NCBI GenBank assembly: GCA_041609855.1
Contig: JBFIPZ010000001.1
Coordinates: 1,491 to 65,490, forward strand
Length of the DNA stretch: 64,000 bases
DNA from: Nitrosopumilaceae archaeon
GTDB lineage: Archaea; Thermoproteota; Nitrososphaeria; Nitrososphaerales; Nitrosopumilaceae
Direction: 5' to 3'
A program made the translations under genes and the position numbers. How positions within the stretch are numbered: position 1 is the stretch's first letter; each line of letters starts with the position of its first letter. Below, in pieces: positions 22,656-34,233 of this stretch. The notes below the pieces were generated by a model. That model was not told where the DNA came from, made no database searches, and was given only the letters and a program-made list of their open reading frames with translations.

Positions 22656-24797
22656 ATGAGTGAAATTATTTTAAAAATTGAAGAAATTCCCCAGCAACAC
22701 GTGGGAAGAGGAAGAGCAATAGTAGATCCTAAAATTATTGAAGAAACAAATTGGAATACAGGACAAATTTTAGAATTAACCTACAATAAAAAAACACATG
22801 TAAAACTCTGGCCAGGTTCTCCAGAGGAATATGGAACAGGTTTAATCAAGATTGATGGAATTACAAGACAAAATATTGGAGCAGGAATTGGAGACAAAAT
22901 TTCTGTAAAATCTGTTGAAGCAGTAAATGCTGAACAAATTATTTTATCACCAACAGAAAAAATCGCAATAGATGGTTTACAACAATATATGATTTATAAT
23001 TATTTGAATCATGTTTTTACCACCGGAGACACAATCTCACTAAGTACTCAAATGGGAGGAAGAGTACAATTTGTAATTACCAGTACCAAACCAACAAAAC
23101 CAGTAATTGTTACAGAAAGTACAATTTTCAAACTAGGCCCAATGACAAAAGCTGTTGATACTACTATTCCACGAATTACATATGATGAGCTTGGAGGTCT
23201 AAAGAATGAAGTTCAAAAAATACGAGAGATGGTAGAACTTCCTATGAGACACCCCGAATTATTTGAGAAAATTGGTGTAGAAGCCCCAAAGGGAGTTTTA
23301 TTATATGGCCCTCCTGGAACGGGAAAGACTCTCCTGGCAAAGGCTGTTGCAGGAGAAACAAATGCTCATTTTATTTCTCTTAGTGGTCCGGAAATTATGG
23401 GAAAATACTATGGAGAAAGTGAAGAAAGAATTAGGGAGATTTTCAAACAAGCTGAGGAAAATTCACCAAGCATAGTTTTCATAGATGAAATTGATTCTAT
23501 CGCACCCAAACGAGATGAGGTATCAGGTGAGGTTGAAAAAAGAATAGTTTCACAACTGTTGACATTAATGGATGGAATGAAAAGCAGAGGGAAGGTTGTA
23601 GTTATTGCAGCCACAAATAGACCCGATTCAATTGATCCTGCTCTAAGAAGACCGGGAAGACTTGACAGAGAAATAGAGATTGGAATTCCTGATGCAGAAG
23701 GAAGACATGAAATACTTTCTATTCATACTCGTGGAATGCCTATTGATGAAAAAGTTGATCTTGAAAAAATATCCAAAACTACACATGGTTTTGTTGGGGC
23801 GGATTTAGAAGTTTTGGCGAAAGAAGCAGCAATGAGATCTTTAAGGAGAATTTTACCTGAAATTGATCTTAACGAAGATAAAATTTCAACTGAAATTCTG
23901 CAAAAAATTCAGATAACTAGTGAAGATTTTAGAGAAGCTCTTAAAGAAGTTAGCCCAAGCGCATTACGTGAAGTGCAAGTACAAATTCCAAATATTAGTT
24001 GGGATGATGTAGGAGGACTACAAGAACTAAAAGAAGAACTTCGTGAAGCAGTAGAGTGGCCTATCAAATACAAGGAAGCTTTTGATTATGTTAATGTAGA
24101 AACTCCAAAAGGAATTTTATTACATGGACCTCCTGGAACTGGAAAGACCTTGATTGCAAAAGCTTTAGCCAAAATGACCGAGTCTAACTTTATCAGTATT
24201 AAAGGTCCAGAACTACTTTCAAAATGGGTTGGTGAATCTGAAAAAGGAGTACGAGAGATTTTTAGAAAAGCTCGCCAAGCTTCCCCCTGTATAATTTTCC
24301 TAGATGAAGTAGATGCTTTGGTTCCAAGAAGAGGCAGTGGTGGATCAGAATCTCATGTAACAGAGAGTGTTGTTTCTCAGATTCTAACAGAAATTGATGG
24401 ACTAGAAGAATTACATGATGTTTTAATAATTGGTGCGACAAATAGACTAGACATTGTGGATGAAGCCTTACTTAGACCTGGAAGATTTGATAGAATAATT
24501 GAGGTACCCAATCCAGATATTAAAGGCCGAGAACAAATTTTCAAAATTCATACCAAAAAGAAACCCCTTGCAAATGATGTAAACATTTCAAATCTAGTTG
24601 AATTAACTGAAGGATTCAACGGAGCTGAAATCGCGGCTGTTGCCAATAGAGCGGCCATTTCTGCTCTCAAAAAATATGTTGGAGGGTCATCTAAAAACCT
24701 CAAGGAAATCAAAATTACGCATGCAGATCTTTTGGATGCAATTGATAAAATCAAGCCTAGAAAGACCGAATCACCCATGACTCAATCCATAAAATAG
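22656..24797 (+). CDS. cdc48: CDC48/VCP-type AAA+ ATPase
   Basis: 713 aa. An N-terminal double-psi barrel region is followed by two AAA modules, each with GPPGTGKT Walker A and DE Walker B (FIDEID, FLDEVD). It starts 28 nt after hsp20. Confidence 0.95.
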
Positions 24798-24827
24798 TCT
24801 AAATACTAAGGAATATGTCTTGAAATT

Positions 24828-25046
24828 ATGAAACTCTATCTCGATTTTGACCCATGTAAAGAATGCAATACAATGATGAAAGAATTGAGTAGTCCTGAAA
24901 TGTTGTTTGCAGATGAGAAAACCAGATCTGATGAATCTGCAAAATTCCTACGGCATCTTACCTATAATCATAACGAAGTAGTCCAAGCCGTTATGGAGGA
25001 CCTACCAAAACAGAAAAGAGATCAAGAATTCGATTTTTTTAAATAA
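24828..25046 (+). CDS. hypothetical small protein
   Basis: 72-aa ORF in an otherwise empty gap. No motifs beyond CxxC. Confidence 0.4.
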   Translation: MKLYLDFDPCKECNTMMKELSSPEMLFADEKTRSDESAKFLRHLTYNHNEVVQAVMEDLPKQKRDQEFDFFK

Positions 25047-25138
25047 TTATTTTCCCATTTTTTGCAATTATCAAACTTAGAAAATAGTAATTATATTGAT
25101 ATACAAAAAATTATTTTACTATAGCAGGTATTGAAAAA

Positions 25139-25522
25139 TTGAAAACTAACTTCCTATTTGGGTTAACGATAATTATTTTTTCACTAATAATTATCTCACC
25201 AGTTTTCGCTCAAGAACCAGAGCCACCAAAAATTCCTGAACCTTCCCCTGAACCTAAACCTATTAAAATTCCTGAACCCGAACCAATTCGAGAACCATTT
25301 CCAGAAGAAAGTGATCCTGAAAAAATTCAAAGATTAAAAGAAGAAAATACCCATCTAAAAGAAGAAAATCTTAATTTAAAAATACAAATTAATGAATTAA
25401 ATAAAATAATTGAAAATCTTCAAGCAATAACTTTGGAACAAATCAAAGTAATAATGGAATTAGTAAGTCAGCTTCGGGAAATATTGTTTGAAAAACCGCT
25501 CTCTTCAATAACAAACTTGTAA
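25139..25522 (+). CDS. secreted Pro/Glu-repeat coiled-coil protein
   Basis: Signal peptide, then PEP-type repeats (EPEPPKIPEPSPEPKPIKIPEPEPIREPFPEE), then a leucine-zipper-like heptad segment. The start codon is TTG. Confidence 0.5.
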   Translation: MKTNFLFGLTIIIFSLIIISPVFAQEPEPPKIPEPSPEPKPIKIPEPEPIREPFPEESDPEKIQRLKEENTHLKEENLNLKIQINELNKIIENLQAITLEQIKVIMELVSQLREILFEKPLSSITNL

Positions 25523-25527
25523 CTAAC

Positions 25528-26460
25528 CTAATCAGTTATTTTTAAGGTTTTTTTTATTAATAATGCACGATTTCGAATTGTAACATCACTAACACCCGAT
25601 TCATTTGAAAACTTTTTTTGACTTATTTTTTCTCCATTAACAATACATGCAATATACAATGATGCTGCTGCTTGGGCTACAGGATGTTTTCCTGCGGTAA
25701 TTCCTTTGTCTTCACATTTTTTAAGAATTTCAAATGCATCTCTCTTTGTTTTTTCACCCAAATTCATGTTATTTGAGATTTTTACAATAAATGATGCAGT
25801 ATCATATTGATTCAGATTCAAAGATAATTTTTTAATAAGCGTTCTTAGATCTCTTGATAAAATCCTTCGCTCTACATTTCCAGCAAGTGCAACATCATCT
25901 AGTGTACGAGGTATGTTGTTCTGTCTACATGAGGCATACAAAGAGGCTGCAATTAATGATGACATAGTTCGTCCCCTAGTAAGTTTTGCATTTACAGCTT
26001 TTCGATAAATATATGCAGCATTTTCAACTACATTATTAGATACTCCGATCTTGGTTTTCATTCCATGTAATAGGGTGAAGGCTTTACTTAATGATGAAGT
26101 TGTTTTTGATTTACTCCTCTGATCCCATGTGCGGAGTCTTTTAAAATCAAATTTTGTTTTACTTGAAAGGCTAGTTCCAGTAGAATCTCTGTTAGTTCCT
26201 ATTACCGTCGATAATCCTTTATCAAACATTGTAAGAGATGTTGCAGGACCAGTTCGGGCATTCTTCATAAAATCTTCTGAACTATAACTATGATTTTCGT
26301 GTGACATATCGTCTAAGTTTTGCACTAAGACAAGCCCGCAACCCCCGCAAAAAACTTCTCCTCTATTTGAATCTGTTATTACAGGGTAGGTTTTGCAAGT
26401 ATCAAGTTGACACTTGACATCATAATCACTAGAATAATACACTACCACTACTAGATACAA
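25528..26460 (-). CDS. tfb: transcription initiation factor B (TFB)
   Basis: N-terminal zinc ribbon (CQLDTC...CGGCGLVL), a B-finger region and two cyclin-like repeats. The exact start is uncertain; GTG codons follow the first ATG. Confidence 0.93.
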   Translation of the reverse strand: MYLVVVVYYSSDYDVKCQLDTCKTYPVITDSNRGEVFCGGCGLVLVQNLDDMSHENHSYSSEDFMKNARTGPATSLTMFDKGLSTVIGTNRDSTGTSLSSKTKFDFKRLRTWDQRSKSKTTSSLSKAFTLLHGMKTKIGVSNNVVENAAYIYRKAVNAKLTRGRTMSSLIAASLYASCRQNNIPRTLDDVALAGNVERRILSRDLRTLIKKLSLNLNQYDTASFIVKISNNMNLGEKTKRDAFEILKKCEDKGITAGKHPVAQAAASLYIACIVNGEKISQKKFSNESGVSDVTIRNRALLIKKTLKITD

Positions 26461-27995: not shown

Positions 27996-28418
27996 ATGAA
28001 GAAAATAAAGAAAATTCTTGTTCCATTAGATGGATCTAAAAATTCTATGAGGGGTCTAGATGAGGGAATTTATCTGGCAAGGCAATGCCAGGCAACAATT
28101 ACAGGTTTGTATGTTGTTCCTTTAGCAAAACCCCAAACCAATTCTCAGATTTCATACGTTGAAAAATACTTGCTAAATAATGCCGCAAAATTTATGGCAA
28201 AAGCCAAAAAACGAGCTGCGCAAAATGGAATACTTTTTGATGATAAAGTAGTTTACGGTGATGAAGCTTCTAAAATTATTAAATTCTCAAAGCAAAAATC
28301 GTACGATATTATAATAATGGGCTCACGAGGAATGAGCTCTCTCAAAGAAACTTTTCTAGGGAGCACTTCAAATTCAGTTCTTCATAAATCTACAATACCA
28401 GTTTTAATCGTAAAGTAA
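27996..28418 (+). CDS. universal stress protein (UspA family)
   Basis: Contains KKILVPLDGSKNS and IIMGSRGMSSLKETFLGSTSNSVLHKSTIPVLIVK. Confidence 0.9.
   Translation: MKKIKKILVPLDGSKNSMRGLDEGIYLARQCQATITGLYVVPLAKPQTNSQISYVEKYLLNNAAKFMAKAKKRAAQNGILFDDKVVYGDEASKIIKFSKQKSYDIIIMGSRGMSSLKETFLGSTSNSVLHKSTIPVLIVK
27998..28115 (+). repeat. 118-bp inverted repeat, left copy (5' end of a USP gene)
   Basis: Matches the reverse complement of 29738-29855 at 117 of 118 positions. The single mismatch is a synonymous A/G at 28085. Confidence 0.9.
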
Positions 28419-28490
28419 CTTGTTCATAAACCAATTTCTCGGAATGAAAATGAGGATCCTCTTTATTAGAATATTCCTTATGATAAAAAT

Positions 28491-28931
28491 ATGGCCCATA
28501 CCTTTGTAAAAGATGTCATGATTGACAAAGTAGATTCCTTAGATTCTTTGTCAACGATTAAAGATGCAGCAAAATTAATGGATGATAAAAATATTGGATG
28601 TGTTATTGCAACCCGAGATGGATTACCGATAGGAATTCTTACAGAACGGGATTTTGTAAAAAGAATTGTTTCTAAAGAAAAATCAATAACTTCCTCAATA
28701 GAAGAAGTAATGTCTTCCCCTCTGATTTCAATTGATCCTGATGAAACGGTATGGGAAGCTGCTGAGGAAATGAAGAGAAATAATATTCACAAATTACCAG
28801 TAATAAAGAATGACAGGGTTGTAGGAATAATAACAACATCCGATTTAGTCGAAATTTGTAGTATTGGATCTGACTCTGAAATGAGAAAAATATGTGATCA
28901 AATCCTAACTAGAATGGAAAAGGAACAATAA
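28491..28931 (+). CDS. CBS-domain pair protein
   Basis: Contains IGCVIATRDGLPIGILTERDF and HKLPVIKNDRVVGIITTSDL. Confidence 0.85.
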   Translation: MAHTFVKDVMIDKVDSLDSLSTIKDAAKLMDDKNIGCVIATRDGLPIGILTERDFVKRIVSKEKSITSSIEEVMSSPLISIDPDETVWEAAEEMKRNNIHKLPVIKNDRVVGIITTSDLVEICSIGSDSEMRKICDQILTRMEKEQ

Positions 28932-28956
28932 AAAAATTAAATTACAAAAAACTAGA

Positions 28957-29427
28957 TTATCTTATTATTAAAACTGGGCATTTTGCATTTTCTGATACCC
29001 TTCTACTTACACTTCCAAGAGTCTTTAATTTTCCTAATCCATGAAGCCCAACACTCCCAATAATTATTAATGAGATTTTTTTGTCTTTTGCAAAATCCAA
29101 AATCTTACCTGCAATATCTCCTTGATCAATCCAATATGATGCAGTAATTCCTTTTGAGTGACATTTTTTTACAGCTTTTTTTAACATTTTTTCTGCATCT
29201 TCTCTGACTGATTTTGACCACTTTTTAATGGCAGCTTTTTCTTCTTTGGAATTTATTAAACTACGAAGTAATCCTGGAGGAGAAATATATCCTACATTTA
29301 CCACAGAAAATAAAAATATTTCAGAATCAAGATTGTGTGCAAGCTCCATAGCTCGTGTTAGTGCCTTTACTGAAAATTTTGAACCGTCATATGGAACTAA
29401 AATTTTAGTTAACATTTTTGAGAACAT
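28957..29427 (-). CDS. universal stress protein (UspA family)
   Basis: Contains KILVPYDGSKFS and IIIGSVGLHGLGKLKTLGSVSRRVSENAKCPVLIIR. Confidence 0.9.
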   Translation of the reverse strand: MFSKMLTKILVPYDGSKFSVKALTRAMELAHNLDSEIFLFSVVNVGYISPPGLLRSLINSKEEKAAIKKWSKSVREDAEKMLKKAVKKCHSKGITASYWIDQGDIAGKILDFAKDKKISLIIIGSVGLHGLGKLKTLGSVSRRVSENAKCPVLIIR

Positions 29428-29434
29428 ATTACCA

Positions 29435-29878
29435 CTATTTCACCACCAACACTGGTACTTTTGATTTATGAACAACAACCTTTGCTACACTACCCAAAAA
29501 AGCTTCTTTTAATCCACTTTGTCCCCTTGATCCAATAACTATCATATCAAATTTTCCAGTTCTTGTCACTTTTTCTATCTCTACAGTTGGACTCCCAAAA
29601 ATAATTTTTGATCTAAAAACAATTCCTTTTTGAGCACATCGAGTTTTTGCTTCACCCATGAATTTTTTTGCGATCTTTGTAAGATGAATTTGAAAGGGCA
29701 TAATTGCATCAATGAAATTTCTAGGGAAAATTGGTATAACATACAAACCTGTAATTGTTGCCTGGCACTGCCTTGCCAGATAAATTCCCTCATCTAGACC
29801 CCTCATAGAATTTTTAGATCCATCTAATGGAACAAGAATTTTCTTTATTTTCTTCCTAATCATTTCTATACAGATCAA
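29435..29878 (-). CDS. universal stress protein (UspA family)
   Basis: Contains KKILVPLDGSKNS and IVIGSRGQSGLKEAFLGSVAKVVVHKSKVPVLVVK. The true start may be the second ATG at 29863 (MIRKK). Confidence 0.9.
   Translation of the reverse strand: MICIEMIRKKIKKILVPLDGSKNSMRGLDEGIYLARQCQATITGLYVIPIFPRNFIDAIMPFQIHLTKIAKKFMGEAKTRCAQKGIVFRSKIIFGSPTVEIEKVTRTGKFDMIVIGSRGQSGLKEAFLGSVAKVVVHKSKVPVLVVK
29738..29855 (-). repeat. 118-bp inverted repeat, right copy (5' end of a USP gene)
   Basis: Reverse complement of 27998-28115 with one mismatch. Both copies encode KKIKKILVPLDGSKNSMRGLDEGIYLARQCQATITGLYV. Confidence 0.9.
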
Positions 29879-29986
29879 CTTTTATGAATTAATACTAAAT
29901 CTAGATTATCAAATTTAATAATCAACTTTTTCTTAATTGAATTTCAACGGTTTAGTTTAATATCTATGATTACTGATTTTTTTTAA

Positions 29987-30415
29987 ATGAGAAAATCACT
30001 ATACATGAACATCCTAGTTCCATTAGATGGTTCAGAATATTCGCAAAAAGCTCTTATTCAAGCATGCGACCTTGCTAAAGTATACCAATCAAATTTGATT
30101 TTAGTTTATGTTGTTGATAAATCTCCCTCTTTAAATTTATTAGATAGAAAGGAGTTTTTAGAAATTCTTCGAAAATTTGGAAATAGGGTTCTAACCAAAG
30201 GAAAAAAAATCGCTAATGACAAAGGACTGGATGTTACTACGATAATAAAAGAAGGGAATGTAACAAACGAAATTGTAAAACTTGCTAAAAATAAAAAATG
30301 TAACTTGATTATAGCGGGAAATAAAGGCCTTGGTGCCACTGCAAGGTTCTTCCTTGGTAGTGTATCAAATAAACTTGCAAATAGTTCTCCTTGTTCCTTA
30401 TTAATAGTAAAATAA
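29987..30415 (+). CDS. universal stress protein (UspA family)
   Basis: Contains NILVPLDGSEYS and IIAGNKGLGATARFFLGSVSNKLANSSPCSLLIVK. Confidence 0.9.
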   Translation: MRKSLYMNILVPLDGSEYSQKALIQACDLAKVYQSNLILVYVVDKSPSLNLLDRKEFLEILRKFGNRVLTKGKKIANDKGLDVTTIIKEGNVTNEIVKLAKNKKCNLIIAGNKGLGATARFFLGSVSNKLANSSPCSLLIVK

Positions 30416-30416
30416 T

Positions 30417-31328
30417 TTAAGCTTCTGCAATTGCTTTTACAACATCAGCTTTTGTAACAATTCCTACAAGTTTCGAATTTTTTACAACTGGTAATCCACT
30501 AATACCATTTCTTATCATTAATAAAACAGCAACGCTAACATCCTCATCAGCTTTTACGGTAATTGGGTTAGGCGTCATAATATCTACAGCTTTGAATTGA
30601 AGTAAATGACTCATTTGATTTACCTGAAATTCTCCGAGATCTTTCTTGGTCCTATAATCCTCCACCTCCTTAGGATCTGCAAATTGAGAAATCCAATGTG
30701 GTAATTTTGCGGGTACAAAATCCCTATATGTGATTATTCCAACAGGAATTTTATCACGTTGGATAATAATTCTTGAAATTCGGTTATGAATTAACAAACT
30801 TTCCACATAAAGCAAAGAATCTCCTGGCATTGCAGTAACTACTTGTCTAGTCATAATTTTTGATACTTTAAGGGGAGACGCAGCATGGGTTAGAAAAATT
30901 GAAGCTAAATCTGTTTTTGTAACTAAACCTTCTAAAATTCCATTTTCTCTCAAAATAATAACCGAACTAATACGATGTTTCTTCATTATTTTTGCGCAAT
31001 CATATACCGATGCCGTTTTTTTTAACGTAAATAGTGTTTTTGACATAAATCCTGACACCTTTACAGATTTGATCGGTTTGTCCCCTAAGGCATAGATCGT
31101 TTTTGCAATATCTTTCTCTGTAATAATCCCAACTGGAATTTTTTTAGAATTAATCACAACAAGCCGTTTTAAATTATGTCGAAGTAAAATTCCTCTTGCC
31201 TCAAGTAGACTAGTATTTGGGCTGATGGTAATAGTTTTTTTTATAATTATTTGGTTTAAACTGGCATTTTTTAATAGCATTAATTCATTTGATTCTTGAA
31301 CTGTTAAATATATGAACTCAAATATCAC
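30417..31328 (-). CDS. protein with four CBS domains
   Basis: 303 aa with four CBS repeats (for example KRLVVINSKKIPVGIITEKDI and SGLPVVKNSKLVGIVTKADV). Confidence 0.85.
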   Translation of the reverse strand: MIFEFIYLTVQESNELMLLKNASLNQIIIKKTITISPNTSLLEARGILLRHNLKRLVVINSKKIPVGIITEKDIAKTIYALGDKPIKSVKVSGFMSKTLFTLKKTASVYDCAKIMKKHRISSVIILRENGILEGLVTKTDLASIFLTHAASPLKVSKIMTRQVVTAMPGDSLLYVESLLIHNRISRIIIQRDKIPVGIITYRDFVPAKLPHWISQFADPKEVEDYRTKKDLGEFQVNQMSHLLQFKAVDIMTPNPITVKADEDVSVAVLLMIRNGISGLPVVKNSKLVGIVTKADVVKAIAEA

Positions 31329-31400
31329 ACATGAAAATCAAATATGAAAATCTAGGGTTTTCTTTTAATTTAAAACAGGGTGATTAATTAAATAGATCAA

Positions 31401-32567
31401 ATGATTACAGATACAATTTATGAACATCTTAAAGACTTACAGTCTACTAAAATAAGGGATCTAATATCAAAACCTACAATTATTGAACCTGATGAAAAAC
31501 TATCTTCTGTAATTAACAAAATTAGTAGAAATAAAGCATATGATGTATTCTGTTTAAATGGGAAATCTACCCTCTCAACTAACATCCTTTCTTTGCTTAA
31601 TGCAAAAAATATTACAAGCATGAAAGTAGATTCCTTTCTTTCACCAGTTCCTTTTATCTCTCCCGAGGATTCAATTCAAAAAGCGTCCCACATAATGATT
31701 CATTATAAAACAAGAGAAGTTCCTGTTGTTTCCAAAAATAAAATTATTGGAGTCGTGACGGCAAAATCAATTCTTAAATCGCTTTCATTAAAGGACAACA
31801 AATGGATAAAAGGCAATCTAATCTACACACAAAATCCTATTACAATTAACGCAAACGAATCATTGAGTAATGCAAAACGAATAATGACTAGTAAAAAAAT
31901 TGATCATCTTCCAGTGCTTCATAATGGTAAAATTAAACAAGTTTTGACCTCATTTCATCTAATGGAGGCTATAATTCCCAAAGAAAGTTTAGGTCGTTTT
32001 TCGGTAGGAGCAAACCGAGTTCATAAATTAGAATCAAGGATTGGGAATATTGGGAGTACGAGAATTCCTCAATGTTCACCTAATGATGATCTAAACAAAA
32101 TTCTTAATTCTATGCTAAAGAGTGATACAACGTGTTGTCTGGTTAATCTCTGGGATAATCTACAAGGAATAATTACATTCAAAGATATCCTAGGACTATT
32201 AGCATCCAAAATTGAAACACAAATTCCATTATTTATAGTTGGAATGCCAGAAGATCAACGCAACTCCAATTTGATTAAATCTAAATTTGAAAAAACTTTA
32301 AAAAGATTACAACAAACTTATTCAGAAATTCACGAAGCTAGAGTTTCAATTAAGAAACAAAGAAGTGGAGGAAAAAAAGAAGGAAAATTTGAGGTTTCAA
32401 TTATGGTTTCTACCTCTCACCACGCTCCACTAATTTACAAATCTGTTGGATTTGATCTAAGTGAAGTTTTAGAAGAAATTAGCCAAAAACTATTAAGGAA
32501 TCTATCTAAACGGGCTAAACGAAGATCAAAAACTAGTATTAGAAAAATGGGATTACCAGTATTCTAA
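31401..32567 (+). CDS. four CBS domains fused to a C-terminal HPF/RaiA (S30AE)-like domain
   Basis: Residues ~1-270 carry four CBS repeats. The last ~110 aa read IPLFIVGMPEDQRNSNLIKSKFEKTLKRLQQTYSEIHEARVSIKK...GKFEVSIMVSTSHHAPLIYKSVGFDLSEVLEEISQKLLRNLSKRAKRRSK. Their spacing follows the beta-alpha-beta-beta-beta-alpha layout and basic tail of bacterial hibernation-promoting factor. Confidence 0.75.
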   Translation: MITDTIYEHLKDLQSTKIRDLISKPTIIEPDEKLSSVINKISRNKAYDVFCLNGKSTLSTNILSLLNAKNITSMKVDSFLSPVPFISPEDSIQKASHIMIHYKTREVPVVSKNKIIGVVTAKSILKSLSLKDNKWIKGNLIYTQNPITINANESLSNAKRIMTSKKIDHLPVLHNGKIKQVLTSFHLMEAIIPKESLGRFSVGANRVHKLESRIGNIGSTRIPQCSPNDDLNKILNSMLKSDTTCCLVNLWDNLQGIITFKDILGLLASKIETQIPLFIVGMPEDQRNSNLIKSKFEKTLKRLQQTYSEIHEARVSIKKQRSGGKKEGKFEVSIMVSTSHHAPLIYKSVGFDLSEVLEEISQKLLRNLSKRAKRRSKTSIRKMGLPVF

Positions 32568-32569
32568 TT

Positions 32570-33289
32570 ATGCAAACCAGCAAAAAAATACCCAAAGAAA
32601 ACATATTACTTGTAGGATTTCCAAGTAATGGCCTTGTAGGAACTTTTACTATTTCATATTTAATTCATCATTTAGAAATGAATCAAATAGGAGAGATAGA
32701 ACATCTAGATTTACCTCCTACCTTATTTGTCGAAGATGGAGAAATTCTCCCACCCATTAGAATCTATAAAAAAAATAATCTTTTTGTTATATTGTCAGAT
32801 CTTCCATTCGATCCTTTTATTGCATATGACTTTGCCGAATCGATATTAGATTATTCAAAAAAAAATCAAATTAAAAAAATAATTATAATAAGTGGAATGG
32901 AAACAACAAACAGAGATCCAAAAGCTCCCAAAATTTATGGTCTAGTTACACATAAATCATTAGAAAAACTTCTTTATGATTTCAGAATTTCCAAATTTTT
33001 AGCAGGTTCAATTTTTGGAACGGATGCAGCAATGATTACATCCTTTAGAAAATCCCAAATTCCCGCCTTAATCTTATATGCAGAATGTCATCCCTTTTTC
33101 CCTGATCCTGAAGCCTCCATTACAGCAATTACTACTTTAGCTAGGGTATTAGATGTAAAAATAGACACCGCTGATATACAAAAGAAAATTGAATGGTTAC
33201 GGATTCAACATAGGAATTTAATGGACGAAACTATTCGTTCCTTACAACAAGAAAAAAAAGTTGGAAGACCTCCTCAAATTTACAGGTGA
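32570..33289 (+). CDS. PAC2-family proteasome assembly chaperone-like protein (PbaA/B-like)
   Basis: The N-terminus LVGFPSNGLVGTFTISYLIHHL is typical of the PAC2 family. The protein ends ...PPQIYR, a hydrophobic-Tyr-X (HbYX) terminus. It starts 2 nt after the preceding stop. Confidence 0.8.
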   Translation: MQTSKKIPKENILLVGFPSNGLVGTFTISYLIHHLEMNQIGEIEHLDLPPTLFVEDGEILPPIRIYKKNNLFVILSDLPFDPFIAYDFAESILDYSKKNQIKKIIIISGMETTNRDPKAPKIYGLVTHKSLEKLLYDFRISKFLAGSIFGTDAAMITSFRKSQIPALILYAECHPFFPDPEASITAITTLARVLDVKIDTADIQKKIEWLRIQHRNLMDETIRSLQQEKKVGRPPQIYR

Positions 33290-33293
33290 TTTT

Positions 33294-33686
33294 ATGGTTA
33301 AAGATGATAACAAATCTGAATTTCGGATCTTATCACCATCAATTAGCTCATTGCTAAGCGATGATATTGATCAACGGACACTCTCTCCGCTGTCTTGTTT
33401 AAGGGAATTTGAAACAAATTGGTTACTAGAGTTTGATCTTCCGCTTGTAAACAAAAATGACATAAAAATAACAATTAATGACAATTCAATTTCTGTAGAA
33501 GCAAAATTAAAAGAAAGCTATTTAGAAGAAAAATTAGGTGTGAAAACAAAATTTGAATATTTCAAAAAAACTCTTACTCTTCCTAGAAAAATTGATGACA
33601 AAAAAACAACTGCTAAATTTAACAAGGGGAGATTAACAATTAAAATACCAAAGGCAGCTTCAGGCCATAAAATCCAAATTCGGTGA
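33294..33686 (+). CDS. Hsp20/alpha-crystallin-like small heat-shock protein
   Basis: Contains WLLEFDLPLVNKNDIKITINDNSISVEAK...TAKFNKGRLTIKIPK. I place the start at ATG 33294 (MVKDDNK), 4 nt after the PAC2 stop, rather than at the overlapping upstream codon 33261. Confidence 0.75.
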   Translation: MVKDDNKSEFRILSPSISSLLSDDIDQRTLSPLSCLREFETNWLLEFDLPLVNKNDIKITINDNSISVEAKLKESYLEEKLGVKTKFEYFKKTLTLPRKIDDKKTTAKFNKGRLTIKIPKAASGHKIQIR

Positions 33687-33959
33687 TTATTTGAAAAATT
33701 GATCGATTTGATCTCTATACTTCACCGTAATTTTTCCAAATTCAGTAAAATCTTCAGCAGTAGGGTATTTCATTCTCATGGCATATTGATTTACAAAAAT
33801 TGAAACTGCACTCCCTACAATTAGATTATAGCATGCATCAGCCAAATTTTTTGAATAAGGATATGCAATTTTAATGAAGGGCAAATATGCCTCAGTTTGT
33901 GAAATCATTAATTTTATTTGCTTTTCAATAAAATCTTGTACATCCTCAGGGATTGGCAT
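33687..33959 (-). CDS. hypothetical protein
   Basis: 90-aa ORF with no competing ORF and no recognisable motif. Confidence 0.45.
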   Translation of the reverse strand: MPIPEDVQDFIEKQIKLMISQTEAYLPFIKIAYPYSKNLADACYNLIVGSAVSIFVNQYAMRMKYPTAEDFTEFGKITVKYRDQIDQFFK

Positions 33960-34014
33960 GATAACAATAATACATTATCCTAATAAATAAGCACTTTTTA
34001 CTTTTTCAATTATT

Positions 34015-34233
34015 TTAGGGAATAATTTGTTCTAAATATCGTTCTTTACCTTTTCTACTCCTAGGTAAACATCTAAGCTGTCTATTGCAACAAGGACAAG
34101 AGATCCCATCAAATTCAACAAAAATTTCGCAATAGTTACACCTTTTTTGCCCAGAAGCATATCTTCCAATTCGAGATGGTTTCTGAGCCTTAAAATTCTT
34201 GCACTCGCCATTACAATAAGTCATTTTTTCCAC
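34015..34233 (-). CDS. small zinc-ribbon protein
   Basis: 72 aa with CNGEC, CNYC and CPCC cysteine pairs. Confidence 0.5.
   Translation of the reverse strand: MEKMTYCNGECKNFKAQKPSRIGRYASGQKRCNYCEIFVEFDGISCPCCNRQLRCLPRSRKGKERYLEQIIP

What the first reader, a model, noticed from the sequence alone, without database searches (positions are those of the whole stretch)
31401..32567. Four CBS domains fused to an HPF/RaiA-like C-terminal domain: a possible energy-sensing ribosome hibernation factor in an archaeon
The first ~270 aa are four clear CBS repeats, which are adenine-nucleotide/SAM-sensing modules. The last ~110 aa are not CBS. They read IPLFIVG-(helix SNLIKSKFEKTLKRLQQTY)-EARVSIKK-(Gly/Lys loop)-KFEVSIMVST-PLIYKSV-(helix DLSEVLEEISQKLLRNL)-SKRAKRRSK. 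This is the beta-alpha-beta-beta-beta-alpha order, spacing and basic tail of the bacterial S30AE/HPF/YfiA family (compare E. coli HPF: LNITG..ALREFVTAKFAKLEQYF..VYVVLKVEK..ATLHV..IHASAEG.DMYAAIDGLIDKLARQL.KHKDK). Canonical HPF homologues are generally regarded as bacterial or plastid proteins. A CBS-gated HPF-like protein would be a plausible way to couple ribosome silencing to energy charge. Its position inside a USP/CBS/Hsp20 stress block fits that reading.
Basis: partly seen in the sequence, partly recalled or inferred. Interest (0 to 1): 0.78.

Follow-up and report, generated by a model that had tools for sequence, protein, structure and literature searches.

The report
HibA-type ribosome hibernation factor, Nitrosopumilaceae
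This gene encodes four nucleotide-sensing CBS domains fused to a bacterial-type ribosome-silencing (HPF/RaiA) domain, which is the HibA/AHA archaeal hibernation factor described in 2025-26, and it occurs here in a marine ammonia-oxidiser family that one of those papers listed as lacking such factors.

Summary
[quoted passage not shown] Foldseek with this domain alone returns only HPF/RaiA/pY-type hibernation factors for all 21 hits with E<=1e-3. A profile of the domain family hits bacterial HPF structures (E=9e-5). Pfam PF02482 scores just below threshold (21.9 vs 23.7 bits).

This architecture was published in 2025-26 as HibA (P. abyssi) and AHA (H. volcanii), with cryo-EM, AMP binding and knock-outs. 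A family profile aligns collinearly with HibA chain 9sr9_H (E=1.4e-41).

What remains of interest:
- The HibA paper lists Nitrosopumilaceae as lacking identifiable factors, yet I find the gene in at least 17 GTDB species of that family.
- It sits beside a SriC-like CBS tetrad, a pairing also seen in soil-AOA-type contigs, although hibA and sri are reported as anti-correlated.
- It heads a tight hibA-PAC2-Hsp20 cluster.
- It has an invariant promoter element with a tandem repeat.

Direct sequence similarity of its C-terminal domain to that of P. abyssi HibA is not detectable.

The parts
31401..32567 (+). hibA/AHA-type gene, 388 aa (stop at 32565-32567)
   Evidence: ORF. Family profile A2 vs P. 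abyssi HibA chain 9sr9_H: E=1.4e-41, one stretch 11-366 vs 5-373. Orthologues 69-92% identical in 18 loci.
31401..32195 (+). N-terminal CBS tetrad (aa 1-265): predicted adenine-nucleotide sensor and large-subunit-binding module
   Evidence: Pfam CBS 1.4e-28. AF2 and Foldseek match SriA, AMPK-gamma, MJ1225 and Dri. The CBS-only profile A3 ranks 9l96_a (134.6 bits) and HibA 9sr9_H (126.5 bits) first, and these are the only end-to-end matches. G256, I257, T259 and D262 of CBS4 are invariant or nearly so across the family.
31968..32045 (+). Extended loop at the CBS3/CBS4 junction (aa ~190-215), at the position of the HibA 'PTC loop' / AHA 'loop 3'
   Evidence: It is the only internal low-confidence segment of the AF2 model (pLDDT<50 at 196-206). 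It aligns without gaps to 9sr9_H residues ~190-207. Median dN/dS 0.083. The PTC role is inferred from PMC13324472 section 7 and PMC12934967 section 8.
32223..32519 (+). C-terminal HPF/RaiA-fold domain (aa 275-373), b-a-b-b-b-a: predicted 30S mRNA/tRNA-channel plug
   Evidence: AF2 topology in two runs. Foldseek: all 21 hits with E<=1e-3 are HPF-type factors, TMt up to 0.74. A1 profile vs S. aureus HPF 6qbz_A: E=9e-5. PF02482 21.9 bits and TIGR00741 E=0.012. Median dN/dS 0.090; pI 10.25 for aa 271-388.
32520..32564 (+). Basic C-terminal tail (aa 374-388, RRSKTSIRKMGLPVF)
   Evidence: A core RS(K/R)xS(I/V)RK is conserved in all 19 copies. pI 12.0 for aa 366-388, with 9 K+R and no D/E. Unstructured in AF2. 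[quoted passage not shown] 2 legend).
31362..31375 (+). Invariant TATA-like box CTTTTAATTTAAAA, 25 nt before the ATG (suggests a leaderless or very short-leader mRNA)
   Evidence: Identical in 19/19 copies, including the two second-context copies L012 and L014. The promoter role and the leaderless reading are inferred from its position.
31332..31352 (+). Tandem direct repeat TGAAAATCAA-N3-TGAAAATC between the two divergent promoters: candidate regulator binding site
   Evidence: Exact in 11 of 18 loci and recognisable in the rest (L005 keeps a single copy), always once per locus and at the same place upstream of hibA. It is the only exact copy in the 64-kb window. The function is inferred.
30417..31328 (-). 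Divergently transcribed standalone CBS tetrad (303-aa ORF; the true start is probably ~16 codons further in), SriC-like
   Evidence: Pfam CBS x4, E=9.8e-50. The best PDB sequence match is SriC chain 9zni_6, E=9.4e-23, against 2e-16 or weaker for other tetrads. Kept next to hibA in 16/18 Nitrosopumilaceae loci. Orthologues (33-37% id, E~1e-46) lie 440-670 bp from hibA in L024, L028, L031 and L032.
32570..33289 (+). PAC2-family (proteasome assembly chaperone) gene starting 2 nt after the hibA stop: probable co-transcription
   Evidence: PF09754 E=6.1e-36 and TIGR00161 E=9.9e-33. 2-nt spacer. Directly downstream in 16/18 loci.
33261..33686 (+). Hsp20 gene. The mechanical TTG start overlaps PAC2. 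An in-frame ATG at 33294 lies 4 nt after the PAC2 stop.
   Evidence: PF00011 E=2.3e-14. ORF and translation. Present after PAC2 in all 15 syntenic loci whose contig extends that far.
27996..30415 (.). Upstream stress block: four USP genes and one 2xCBS gene
   Evidence: PF00582 E=1e-25 to 5e-31 and PF00571. Conserved in the orthologous loci, with part of the block inverted in L005.

Best explanation
The gene encodes a HibA/AHA-type ribosome hibernation factor of a Nitrosopumilaceae ammonia-oxidising archaeon. By analogy with the solved HibA and AHA ribosome complexes, the predicted mechanism is as follows. The basic C-terminal HPF/RaiA-fold domain lodges in the mRNA/tRNA channel of the small subunit at the A and P sites, and its Lys/Arg tail reaches towards the mRNA exit channel. 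The N-terminal CBS tetrad binds the large subunit and inserts the long loop at the CBS3/CBS4 junction into the peptidyl-transferase centre. One polypeptide thereby clamps an idle 70S ribosome, blocks translation and protects the functional centres from degradation. The CBS3/CBS4 site probably binds AMP or other adenylates. The gene has its own strongly conserved promoter with a tandem-repeat element. It is probably co-transcribed with a PAC2-family chaperone and Hsp20 inside a USP/CBS stress block, so it is likely expressed as part of a stress or energy-limitation response. What is shown here: the domain architecture, the fold, the homology and the selective constraint. What is inferred: ribosome binding, nucleotide binding, regulation and physiological role.
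For: Architecture and fold: four CBS domains plus a b-a-b-b-b-a C-terminal domain, at pLDDT 86 and 83. In the Foldseek search with the C-terminal domain, all 21 hits with E<=1e-3 are HPF/RaiA/pY factors. Sequence: PF02482 E=3e-4. The A1 family profile hits 12 bacterial HPF sequences in the PDB, the best at E=9e-5, and 16 of 62 family members hit PF02482 individually. Link to the characterised family: the full-length profile A2 matches P. abyssi HibA 9sr9_H at E=1.4e-41, collinear through both modules, and 9l96_a at E=2.6e-39. The CBS-only profile ranks these two first and end to end. The C-terminal domain alone retrieves 360-410-aa proteins of the same architecture from Nitrososphaeraceae and Bathyarchaeia, and the AHA survey itself used a Nitrososphaera viennensis seed. 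Constraint: median dN/dS 0.085 (CBS) and 0.090 (C-terminal domain); the domain has pI 10.25 and the tail motif is conserved. The CBS4 ribose-binding positions T259 and D262 are conserved family-wide. Function of the family: PMC13324472 and PMC12934967.
Against: No experiment exists for this protein or for any Nitrosopumilaceae ribosome. The C-terminal domain has no detectable direct sequence similarity to the C-terminal domains of the two archaeal chains solved on ribosomes: 4.6 and 3.3 bits, and hhalign E=0.027. The orthology argument therefore rests on the CBS module, the shared fold and the published surveys. The margin of the HibA chains over Sri-type tetrads in the CBS-only search is modest, at 7-15 bits. 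The Pfam and NCBIfam HPF models are below their curated thresholds. The HibA paper reports Nitrosopumilaceae as lacking identifiable factors, so its iterated HMM either missed this clade or found it in too few genomes to count. Nucleotide control of ribosome binding is not demonstrated even for HibA.
Confidence: 0.8

Rival explanations
1. Convergent architecture: a SriA-like CBS tetrad became fused to an HPF/RaiA domain independently in the Thermoproteota/AOA lineage. The protein would work like HibA but would not be an orthologue of the Thermococcales and haloarchaeal HibA/AHA.
For: The C-terminal-domain profile of this clade reaches bacterial HPFs (E=9e-5) but not the C-terminal domains of 9sr9_H or 9l96_a even at E<=10. 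Standalone HPF-like proteins 35-58% identical to this domain exist on contigs of similar G+C.
Against: The CBS-only profile ranks the two HPF-fused chains first, and they are the only end-to-end matches. Domain order, linker position and the long CBS3/4 loop are the same. The published phylogenies find the HibA CBS module monophyletic and treat the standalone HPF-like proteins as derived by loss of the CBS module. Archaeal HPF domains are reported to be unusually divergent from one another.
Confidence: 0.1
2. An energy-sensing CBS regulator whose HPF-fold domain has been repurposed, for example to bind another RNA or a protein partner such as the neighbouring SriC-like tetrad or PAC2. It would not be a ribosome hibernation factor.
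For: Below the HPF matches, the fold gives weak dsRBD-like hits (rank 22 onwards, E>=2.7e-3). The lineage-specific conserved neighbourhood with PAC2 and Hsp20 is not reported for HibA elsewhere and is absent in Bathyarchaeia. The HibA authors themselves speculate about sequestering partners.
Against: Every feature used for ribosome contact in HibA/AHA is retained and under purifying selection: the basic HPF domain, the basic tail and the long CBS3/4 loop. No other domain is detected. Every characterised protein with this fold in the Foldseek list is a ribosome-bound factor.
Confidence: 0.07
3. A transcriptional regulator or histidine kinase, as some database records name close homologues.
For: Source names 'predicted transcriptional regulator' (JGI) and 'histidine kinase' (NCBI MAG records) for proteins 78-86% identical to the Nitrosarchaeum orthologue L013, which is itself 74% identical to this protein. 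One CBS-tetrad family member, HhpR, is a transcription factor.
Against: No HTH, HisKA or HATPase domain appears in the Pfam or NCBIfam scans. The HhpR model scores 41 bits against a cut-off of 520. The C-terminal domain is HPF-fold.
Confidence: 0.02

Closest known systems
HibA (Pyrococcus abyssi PAB0961 / Thermococcus TK1186; Madru et al., Nat Commun 2026, PMC13324472; PDB 9SR9-9SRF, 9T7H)
   Same: Same length class (388 vs 392 aa) and same order of parts: CBS tetrad (1-269 in HibA), long loop in the third CBS region, and a C-terminal b-a-b-b-b-a HPF/RaiA-like domain with a basic end. The family profile aligns collinearly at E=1.4e-41.
   Different: The C-terminal domains share no significant sequence similarity (4.6 bits). 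This clade's domain is closer in sequence to bacterial HPF and carries the motif IP.(F/Y)IVG(L/M)P(E/D)D...EAR..IK...(Y/F)EV.(I/V)...G(W/F)DL. The lineage is one the paper lists as lacking factors. The gene context (SriC-like, PAC2, Hsp20, USPs) is different.
[quoted passage not shown]
   Same: Same two-module design. The CBS tetrad resembles AMPK-gamma, which is also my Foldseek result. The survey used seeds from Thermoproteota and Nitrososphaera viennensis, so it covers this branch of the family.
   Different: AMP binding at CBS3/4 and ribosome binding are shown for AHA and only inferred here. Nitrosopumilaceae are not mentioned in the main text.
Bacterial and plastid HPF / RaiA (YfiA) / pY, Pfam PF02482, TIGR00741
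   Same: The C-terminal domain has the same fold, with Foldseek E down to 7e-6 and TMt up to 0.74. It also has profile-level sequence similarity over nearly the whole core.
   Different: Below the curated Pfam and NCBIfam thresholds. Fused to a CBS tetrad. It has no long-HPF dimerisation domain, so 100S formation by that route is not expected.
SriA-D / ARC-A,P and Dri (standalone or doubled CBS-tetrad hibernation factors; PMC13454478, 10.64898/2026.01.19.700304)
   Same: Homologous CBS tetrads; SriA is the top Foldseek hit for the full model. The neighbouring 303-aa gene is itself SriC-like.
   Different: Those factors lack an HPF domain and use loops or 'occlusion elements' instead. hibA and sri are reported to co-occur rarely (91 genomes), whereas here they are adjacent.

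Membership tests
HibA / AHA (archaeal CBS-tetrad-HPF hibernation factors) | N-terminal module of four tandem CBS domains forming a compact tetrad | tested here: met
   Pfam CBS E=1.4e-28. The AF2 model shows four units. Foldseek matches tetrads at TMt 0.7-0.8.
HibA / AHA (archaeal CBS-tetrad-HPF hibernation factors) | C-terminal domain with the HPF/RaiA b-a-b-b-b-a fold | tested here: met
   AF2 in two runs. In Foldseek against the PDB, all 21 hits with E<=1e-3 are HPF/RaiA/pY/protein Y/RafH.
HibA / AHA (archaeal CBS-tetrad-HPF hibernation factors) | Extended loop in the third CBS region (PTC loop / loop 3) | tested here: met
   Loop at aa ~190-215, with pLDDT<50 at 196-206. It aligns ungapped with 9sr9_H ~190-207 and is conserved, with dN/dS 0.083. 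Insertion into the PTC itself is not testable here.
HibA / AHA (archaeal CBS-tetrad-HPF hibernation factors) | CBS module belongs to the HibA-CM clade rather than to Sri/CM/AMPK-gamma-like tetrads | tested here: inconclusive
   The CBS-only profile ranks 9l96_a (134.6 bits) and 9sr9_H (126.5 bits) first and end to end, but SriB-type 9znf_5 (119.5) and MJ1225 (117.9) are close behind. No phylogeny was made.
HibA / AHA (archaeal CBS-tetrad-HPF hibernation factors) | C-terminal domain homologous in sequence to that of characterised HibA/AHA | tested here: inconclusive
   Collinear within the full-length profile alignment, but the domain alone scores 4.6 and 3.3 bits and hhalign gives E=0.027. The attempt to build a Thermococcales-branch profile failed.
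HibA / AHA (archaeal CBS-tetrad-HPF hibernation factors) | Binds 70S ribosomes at the A/P/E sites and mRNA channel; inhibits translation; protects ribosomes in stationary phase | not testable with these tools
   Needs sedimentation, cryo-EM, in vitro translation and genetics. The only indirect support here is the basic character (pI 10.25) and the selective constraint.
HibA / AHA (archaeal CBS-tetrad-HPF hibernation factors) | Adenylate (AMP preferred) binding at the CBS3/CBS4 interface | not testable with these tools
   Only the conserved G256-I257-x-T259-x-x-D262 motif of CBS4 and T183/S184 of CBS3 could be noted.
Bacterial HPF/RaiA (Pfam PF02482 Ribosomal_S30AE; NCBIfam TIGR00741 yfiA) | Score at or above the curated family threshold | tested here: not met
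   PF02482 scores 21.9 bits against a cut-off of 23.7. TIGR00741 scores 16 bits against 40.9. It is a distant relative of the family, not a member by those criteria.
Bacterial HPF/RaiA (Pfam PF02482 Ribosomal_S30AE; NCBIfam TIGR00741 yfiA) | HPF fold and profile-level homology over the whole core | tested here: met
   A1 profile vs 6qbz_A: E=9e-5, positions 23-114 vs 14-103. Foldseek.
SriC (for the 303-aa neighbour at 30417..31328) | Standalone CBS tetrad closest to M. acetivorans SriC, with a positively charged SSU-binding loop | tested here: inconclusive
   The best PDB sequence match is 9zni_6, E=9.4e-23. The loop aligned to the SriC binding loop carries about as many acidic as basic residues (read). 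That fits the 'SriC-short' subgroup, which the authors set aside as possibly diverged in function.

The most novel reading that the evidence does not exclude
In ammonia-oxidising archaea, HibA does not act alone. It forms a conserved functional pair with the adjacent SriC-short-like CBS tetrad, which could be a second factor on the small subunit or a nucleotide-dependent partner or antagonist that sequesters HibA. Both genes would be driven from a shared divergent control region containing the TGAAAATC tandem repeat, and hibA would be co-expressed with a PAC2 chaperone and Hsp20. This would be a lineage-specific two-component hibernation and proteostasis module. It would run against the reported mutual exclusion of hibA and sri, in a family said to lack hibernation factors.
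Probability: 0.2. Interest if true: 0.55.

Novelty: new member of a known kind. Interest (0 to 1): 0.35.

Why it matters
Ammonia-oxidising archaea of the Nitrosopumilaceae are among the most abundant microbes in the ocean and persist under chronic energy limitation, but how they park their ribosomes is unknown. One of the papers that defined HibA concluded that this family lacks identifiable hibernation factors and drew an ecological inference from that, namely that a stable water column reduces the need for them. This window shows that at least a subset of the family does encode a HibA-type factor: 17 GTDB species, including Nitrosarchaeum, Ca. Nitrosomaritimum and Nitrosopumilus sp. K4. The gene is routinely annotated only as 'CBS domain-containing protein'. 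It sits in a conserved stress cluster with its own invariant promoter element. This refines the published distribution, gives a concrete candidate to test in AOA starvation physiology, and points to an AOA-wide hibA + SriC-like gene pair that the general anti-correlation of these systems would not predict. The protein family and its mechanism are not new.

Tried and rejected
1. Single-sequence phmmer of the C-terminal 123 aa against the PDB gave only chance-level hits. A family profile was needed.
2. hhalign of the A1 profile against single sequences gave low probabilities: P. abyssi HibA C-terminal domain 1.8% (E=0.027) and S. aureus HPF 23% (E=8.7e-4). A one-sequence template is too weak.
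3. The last homologous-protein search, with the P. abyssi HibA C-terminal domain, returned only 4 fragments. No Thermococcales-branch profile could be built, so the profile-profile test was not possible.
4. Local phmmer and hmmsearch of the two archaeal ribosome-bound C-terminal domains against my family set gave no significant scores.
5. The supplements of the HibA paper hold genome lists but no per-genome presence/absence table that I could read. The supplements of the AHA and Sri papers are not held. I could not see whether those surveys already list Nitrosopumilaceae homologues.
6. The A1 profile's top PDB hit, a Q-beta coat/A1 fusion (E=2.6e-5), is a 28-residue beta-hairpin match counted twice in a tandem fusion. 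I rejected it as spurious.
7. No tRNA or Rfam family is found in the window.
8. A regulon search for the upstream repeat found no second convincing site in the window or in the flanks of the loci. The half-site upstream of USP 27996 is at chance level.
9. The taxonomy of the standalone HPF-like relatives could not be established; only ~32% G+C is known.
10. I rejected the database names 'histidine kinase' and 'transcriptional regulator' because no such domains are present.
Full report
OBSERVATION. Pfam finds CBS at E=1.4e-28 and, below threshold, PF02482 Ribosomal_S30AE. On the C-terminal 115 aa alone, PF02482 scores 21.9 bits against a cut-off of 23.7, E=3e-4, covering profile positions 14-87 of 88. 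NCBIfam TIGR00741 (yfiA/HPF) gives E=0.012. The window has 31-37% G+C. All close homologues are from Nitrosopumilus or Nitrosopumilaceae MAGs and are annotated 'CBS domain-containing protein'.

STRUCTURE. AlphaFold2 was run with a 41-sequence alignment of 22-64% identical full-length relatives (A2). It gives mean pLDDT 86.1 and pTM 0.71. A second, independent model of the C-terminal 123 aa (62-sequence alignment A1, pLDDT 83.0) gives the same topology. Foldseek with the full model returns CBS tetrads: SriA 9znf_4 (E=1.2e-17), AMPK-gamma, MJ1225 and Dri. In the Foldseek search with the C-terminal model, all 21 hits with E<=1e-3 are HPF/RaiA/pY/protein Y/RafH hibernation factors. They include chloroplast pY 28lu_y, Vibrio HPF 4hei_A (TMt 0.74), 6eri_BV (TMq 0.64), and the Borrelia, Listeria, Psychrobacter RaiA, M. 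smegmatis and E. coli HPF structures. The first unrelated fold appears at rank 22.

SEQUENCE HOMOLOGY OF THE C-TERMINAL DOMAIN. Alone, the domain finds nothing in the PDB. In an exhaustive phmmer search of 1.84 billion cluster representatives, the 121-aa domain finds 93 proteins at E<=1e-3. Many are 360-410 aa with the match at residues ~265-380, the same architecture. Others are standalone proteins of 113-145 aa. Named cluster members are from Nitrososphaeraceae and Bathyarchaeia/Thermoproteota. The profile of 62 such domains (A1) hits 12 distinct bacterial HPF sequences in the PDB, the best being S. aureus HPF 6qbz_A at E=9e-5 over positions 23-114 vs 14-103. Sixteen of the 62 members hit PF02482 individually at E<0.01. 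The one non-HPF hit near the top, a Q-beta coat fusion, is a 28-residue hairpin counted twice, and I discount it.

WHAT IS ALREADY KNOWN. A literature search shows that this architecture was published in 2025-26.
- Madru et al. (PMC13324472) found HibA on P. abyssi 70S ribosomes by cryo-EM. It has a CBS module (1-269) and a C-terminal b-a-b-b-b-a HPF/RaiA-like domain (270-392). The C-terminal domain sits in the 30S mRNA/tRNA channel. The CBS module takes three positions on the 50S, one of which inserts a 'PTC loop' (190-207) into the peptidyl-transferase centre. AMP binds with Kd 12 uM. Deleting hibA delays recovery from stationary phase.
- Souza et al. (PMC12934967) describe the same family as AHA in H. 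volcanii, with two AMP at CBS3/4 and homology of the tetrad to AMPK-gamma.
- Nissley et al. (PMC13454478) describe the related standalone tetrads SriA-D and note a SriA-HPF fusion, meaning HibA, in 42% of archaeal species.

IS THIS PROTEIN A MEMBER? The full-length family profile A2 matches HibA chain 9sr9_H at E=1.4e-41 in one collinear stretch, 11-366 vs 5-373. The alignment runs through the PTC-loop region without gaps and on through the C-terminal domain. It also matches the 406-aa chain 9l96_a at E=2.6e-39, with a second stretch covering that chain's C-terminal domain. That chain is acidic and looks haloarchaeal, which is my inference from its printed sequence. A CBS-only profile (A3) still ranks these two first, at 134.6 and 126.5 bits, and they are the only end-to-end single-stretch matches. 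SriB-type 9znf_5 (119.5 bits) and MJ1225 (117.9 bits) are not far behind. The weak link is the C-terminal domain. On its own it shows no significant similarity to the C-terminal domains of 9sr9_H or 9l96_a: nothing at E<=10, 4.6 and 3.3 bits locally, and hhalign E=0.027. The b3-b4-a2 motif is nevertheless in register. My attempt to build a Thermococcales-branch profile failed. This fits the AHA paper's remark that archaeal HPF domains are more divergent among themselves than bacterial ones. That paper also used a Nitrososphaera viennensis seed. Still, I cannot exclude an independent fusion, which I put at about 0.1.

CONSTRAINT AND CHEMISTRY. Across 18 orthologous loci the median dN/dS against the window copy is 0.085 for the CBS module, 0.083 for the loop, 0.090 for the C-terminal core and 0.151 for the tail. 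The C-terminal region has pI 10.25 and the last 23 residues have pI 12.0. A core RS(K/R)xS(I/V)RK is conserved in all 19 copies. G256, I257, T259 and D262 of CBS4 and T183/S184 of CBS3 are invariant or nearly so across the wide family. These are the classical ribose-contacting positions of CBS domains (established knowledge), at the interface where HibA and AHA bind adenylates.

DISTRIBUTION. The HibA paper states that Nitrosopumilaceae and Poseidoniia are 'the most notable' lineages lacking identifiable factors, and it builds an ecological argument on that. A pattern-based scan of one genome per GTDB species gives only a lower bound, because it needs exact 8-mers. It found the gene in 18 loci of 17 species: Nitrosopumilus sp., Ca. 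Nitrosomaritimum (2 species), Nitrosarchaeum (2) and unnamed Nitrosopumilaceae MAGs (one record is labelled Nitrososphaeraceae), at 69-92% identity. Roughly 550 clusters at 90% identity exist in public data. One carrier is not labelled as a MAG: Nitrosopumilus sp. K4, on a 1.65-Mb contig. N. maritimus SCM1 did not appear in the scan, so the gene may indeed be absent from typical open-ocean strains. I could not test this properly.

CONTEXT.
- In 16 of 18 loci the order is the USP/2xCBS block, then a 303-aa CBS tetrad (-), hibA (+) and PAC2 (+), with Hsp20 (+) following in all 15 of those loci whose contig extends far enough.
- PAC2 starts 2 nt after the hibA stop. An in-frame ATG of Hsp20 lies 4 nt after the PAC2 stop (read). 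The three genes are probably one transcript (inference).
- The 303-aa neighbour is closest to SriC (9zni_6, E=9.4e-23). Its loop aligned to the SriC binding loop is not positively charged, like the 'SriC-short' subgroup reported mainly in Nitrososphaerales.
- In four soil-AOA-type contigs (L024, L028, L031, L032), an orthologue of this neighbour (33-37% identity, E~1e-46) lies 440-670 bp from the hibA homologue. For comparison, generic CBS cross-hits score ~1e-7 to 1e-9. A Bathyarchaeia locus has none.
- hibA and sri are reported to co-occur in only 91 genomes, with SriC-short left out of that analysis. This AOA-wide pairing therefore seems not to have been described.
- The PAC2, Hsp20 and USP context was not seen outside Nitrosopumilaceae, apart from one USP in L028.

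PROMOTER. The 130 nt upstream of hibA carry an invariant CTTTTAATTTAAAA (31362-31375, 25 nt before the ATG) in all 19 copies. Upstream of it lies a tandem repeat TGAAAATCAA-N3-TGAAAATC (31332-31352). Both are retained in the two second-context copies L012 and L014, where the upstream gene is different. The repeat is exact in 11 of 18 loci, occurs once per locus, and is unique in the window. I read these as a TATA box giving a leaderless or near-leaderless mRNA, plus a regulator binding site. Both readings are inferences.

PHYSIOLOGY FROM THE LITERATURE. In N. maritimus SCM1, CBS proteins encoded next to uspA genes were detected only at the highest growth temperature (PMC12974425). Sponge Thaumarchaeota up-regulate USP, Hsp20 and CBS genes in hypoxia (10.1101/2023.02.27.530229). 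Neither paper lets me identify the hibA type. No paper in the library links ammonia-oxidising archaea to ribosome hibernation.

VERDICT. The family is already known, so this is a new member of a known kind. Three modest points add to the published picture: presence in a lineage reported to lack it, a conserved pairing with a SriC-like tetrad, and a conserved operon and promoter. Interest 0.35.

Noticed in passing
window 31332-31375: An invariant TATA-like CTTTTAATTTAAAA preceded by a tandem direct repeat TGAAAATCAA-N3-TGAAAATC upstream of hibA. Both are conserved in all 18 related loci, including two where the upstream gene differs (L005 keeps only one repeat copy). The repeat is unique in the window. 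It is a candidate operator of an unknown regulator.
   Followed up: partly
window 30417-31328 (-); L024:2331-3425, L028:6828-7949, L031:3457-4332, L032:828-1703: A SriC-like standalone CBS tetrad lies next to hibA in Nitrosopumilaceae (16/18 loci) and in soil-AOA-type contigs (33-37% identity, E~1e-46). The literature reports hibA and sri genes as anti-correlated.
   Followed up: partly
window 32570-33686: PAC2-family proteasome-assembly-chaperone and Hsp20 genes follow hibA with 2-nt and (from the ATG at 33294) 4-nt spacers. This suggests one hibA-PAC2-Hsp20 transcript. PAC2 follows hibA in 16/18 loci, and Hsp20 follows in all 15 of those with enough flank.
   Followed up: partly
L012:836-2011 and L014:6001-7164: These are copies of the gene in a different context, followed by a convergent USP gene. 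L012 is from the same MAG as L005, so that genome has two paralogues. L012 and L018 encode 392-aa variants whose aligned C-termini suggest a 4-aa insertion near the basic tail.
   Followed up: partly
P0125, P0127-P0132; L019:5001-5363, L022:1782-2156: Standalone 113-124-aa HPF-like proteins are 35-58% identical to this C-terminal domain and carry the same SIRK tail motif. They lie on ~32% G+C contigs, and one is next to a USP gene. They are probably CBS-less derivatives in related archaea, but the taxonomy was not established.
   Followed up: partly
window 27996-30415: A dense block of four universal-stress-protein genes and one 2xCBS gene lies upstream. It is conserved in the related loci, and part of it is inverted in L005.
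   Followed up: partly
window 22656-26460: A CDC48-type double AAA+ ATPase (713 aa) and a TFIIB/TFB gene lie a few kb upstream of the stress block. In N. maritimus a CDC48-like ATPase and Hsp20 are reported as heat-induced operon partners (PMC12974425). Here they are not adjacent.
   Followed up: no
window 33687-34233 (-): Two small conserved ORFs (90 aa with no Pfam hit; 72 aa, Cys-rich and zinc-ribbon-like) lie downstream of Hsp20 on the opposite strand. They are 72-99% and 80-90% identical across the loci.
   Followed up: no
P0249; P0289, P0363, P0288, P0300: There are annotation oddities. A Bathyarchaeota-type HibA homologue is filed under [Eubacterium] cellulosolvens (WP_455281038.1), probably through contamination. 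Close Nitrosopumilales homologues are named 'histidine kinase' or 'predicted transcriptional regulator'. JGI sometimes appends 'ribosome-associated translation inhibitor RaiA'.
   Followed up: no
window 30417-31328 (-), N-terminus: The mechanical GTG start of the SriC-like ORF is probably too far upstream. In more distant loci, similarity stops ~15 codons short of the mechanical N-terminus. A conserved GGTTAAATATATGAAC element (window 31311-31326) would then act as that gene's own TATA region.
   Followed up: no
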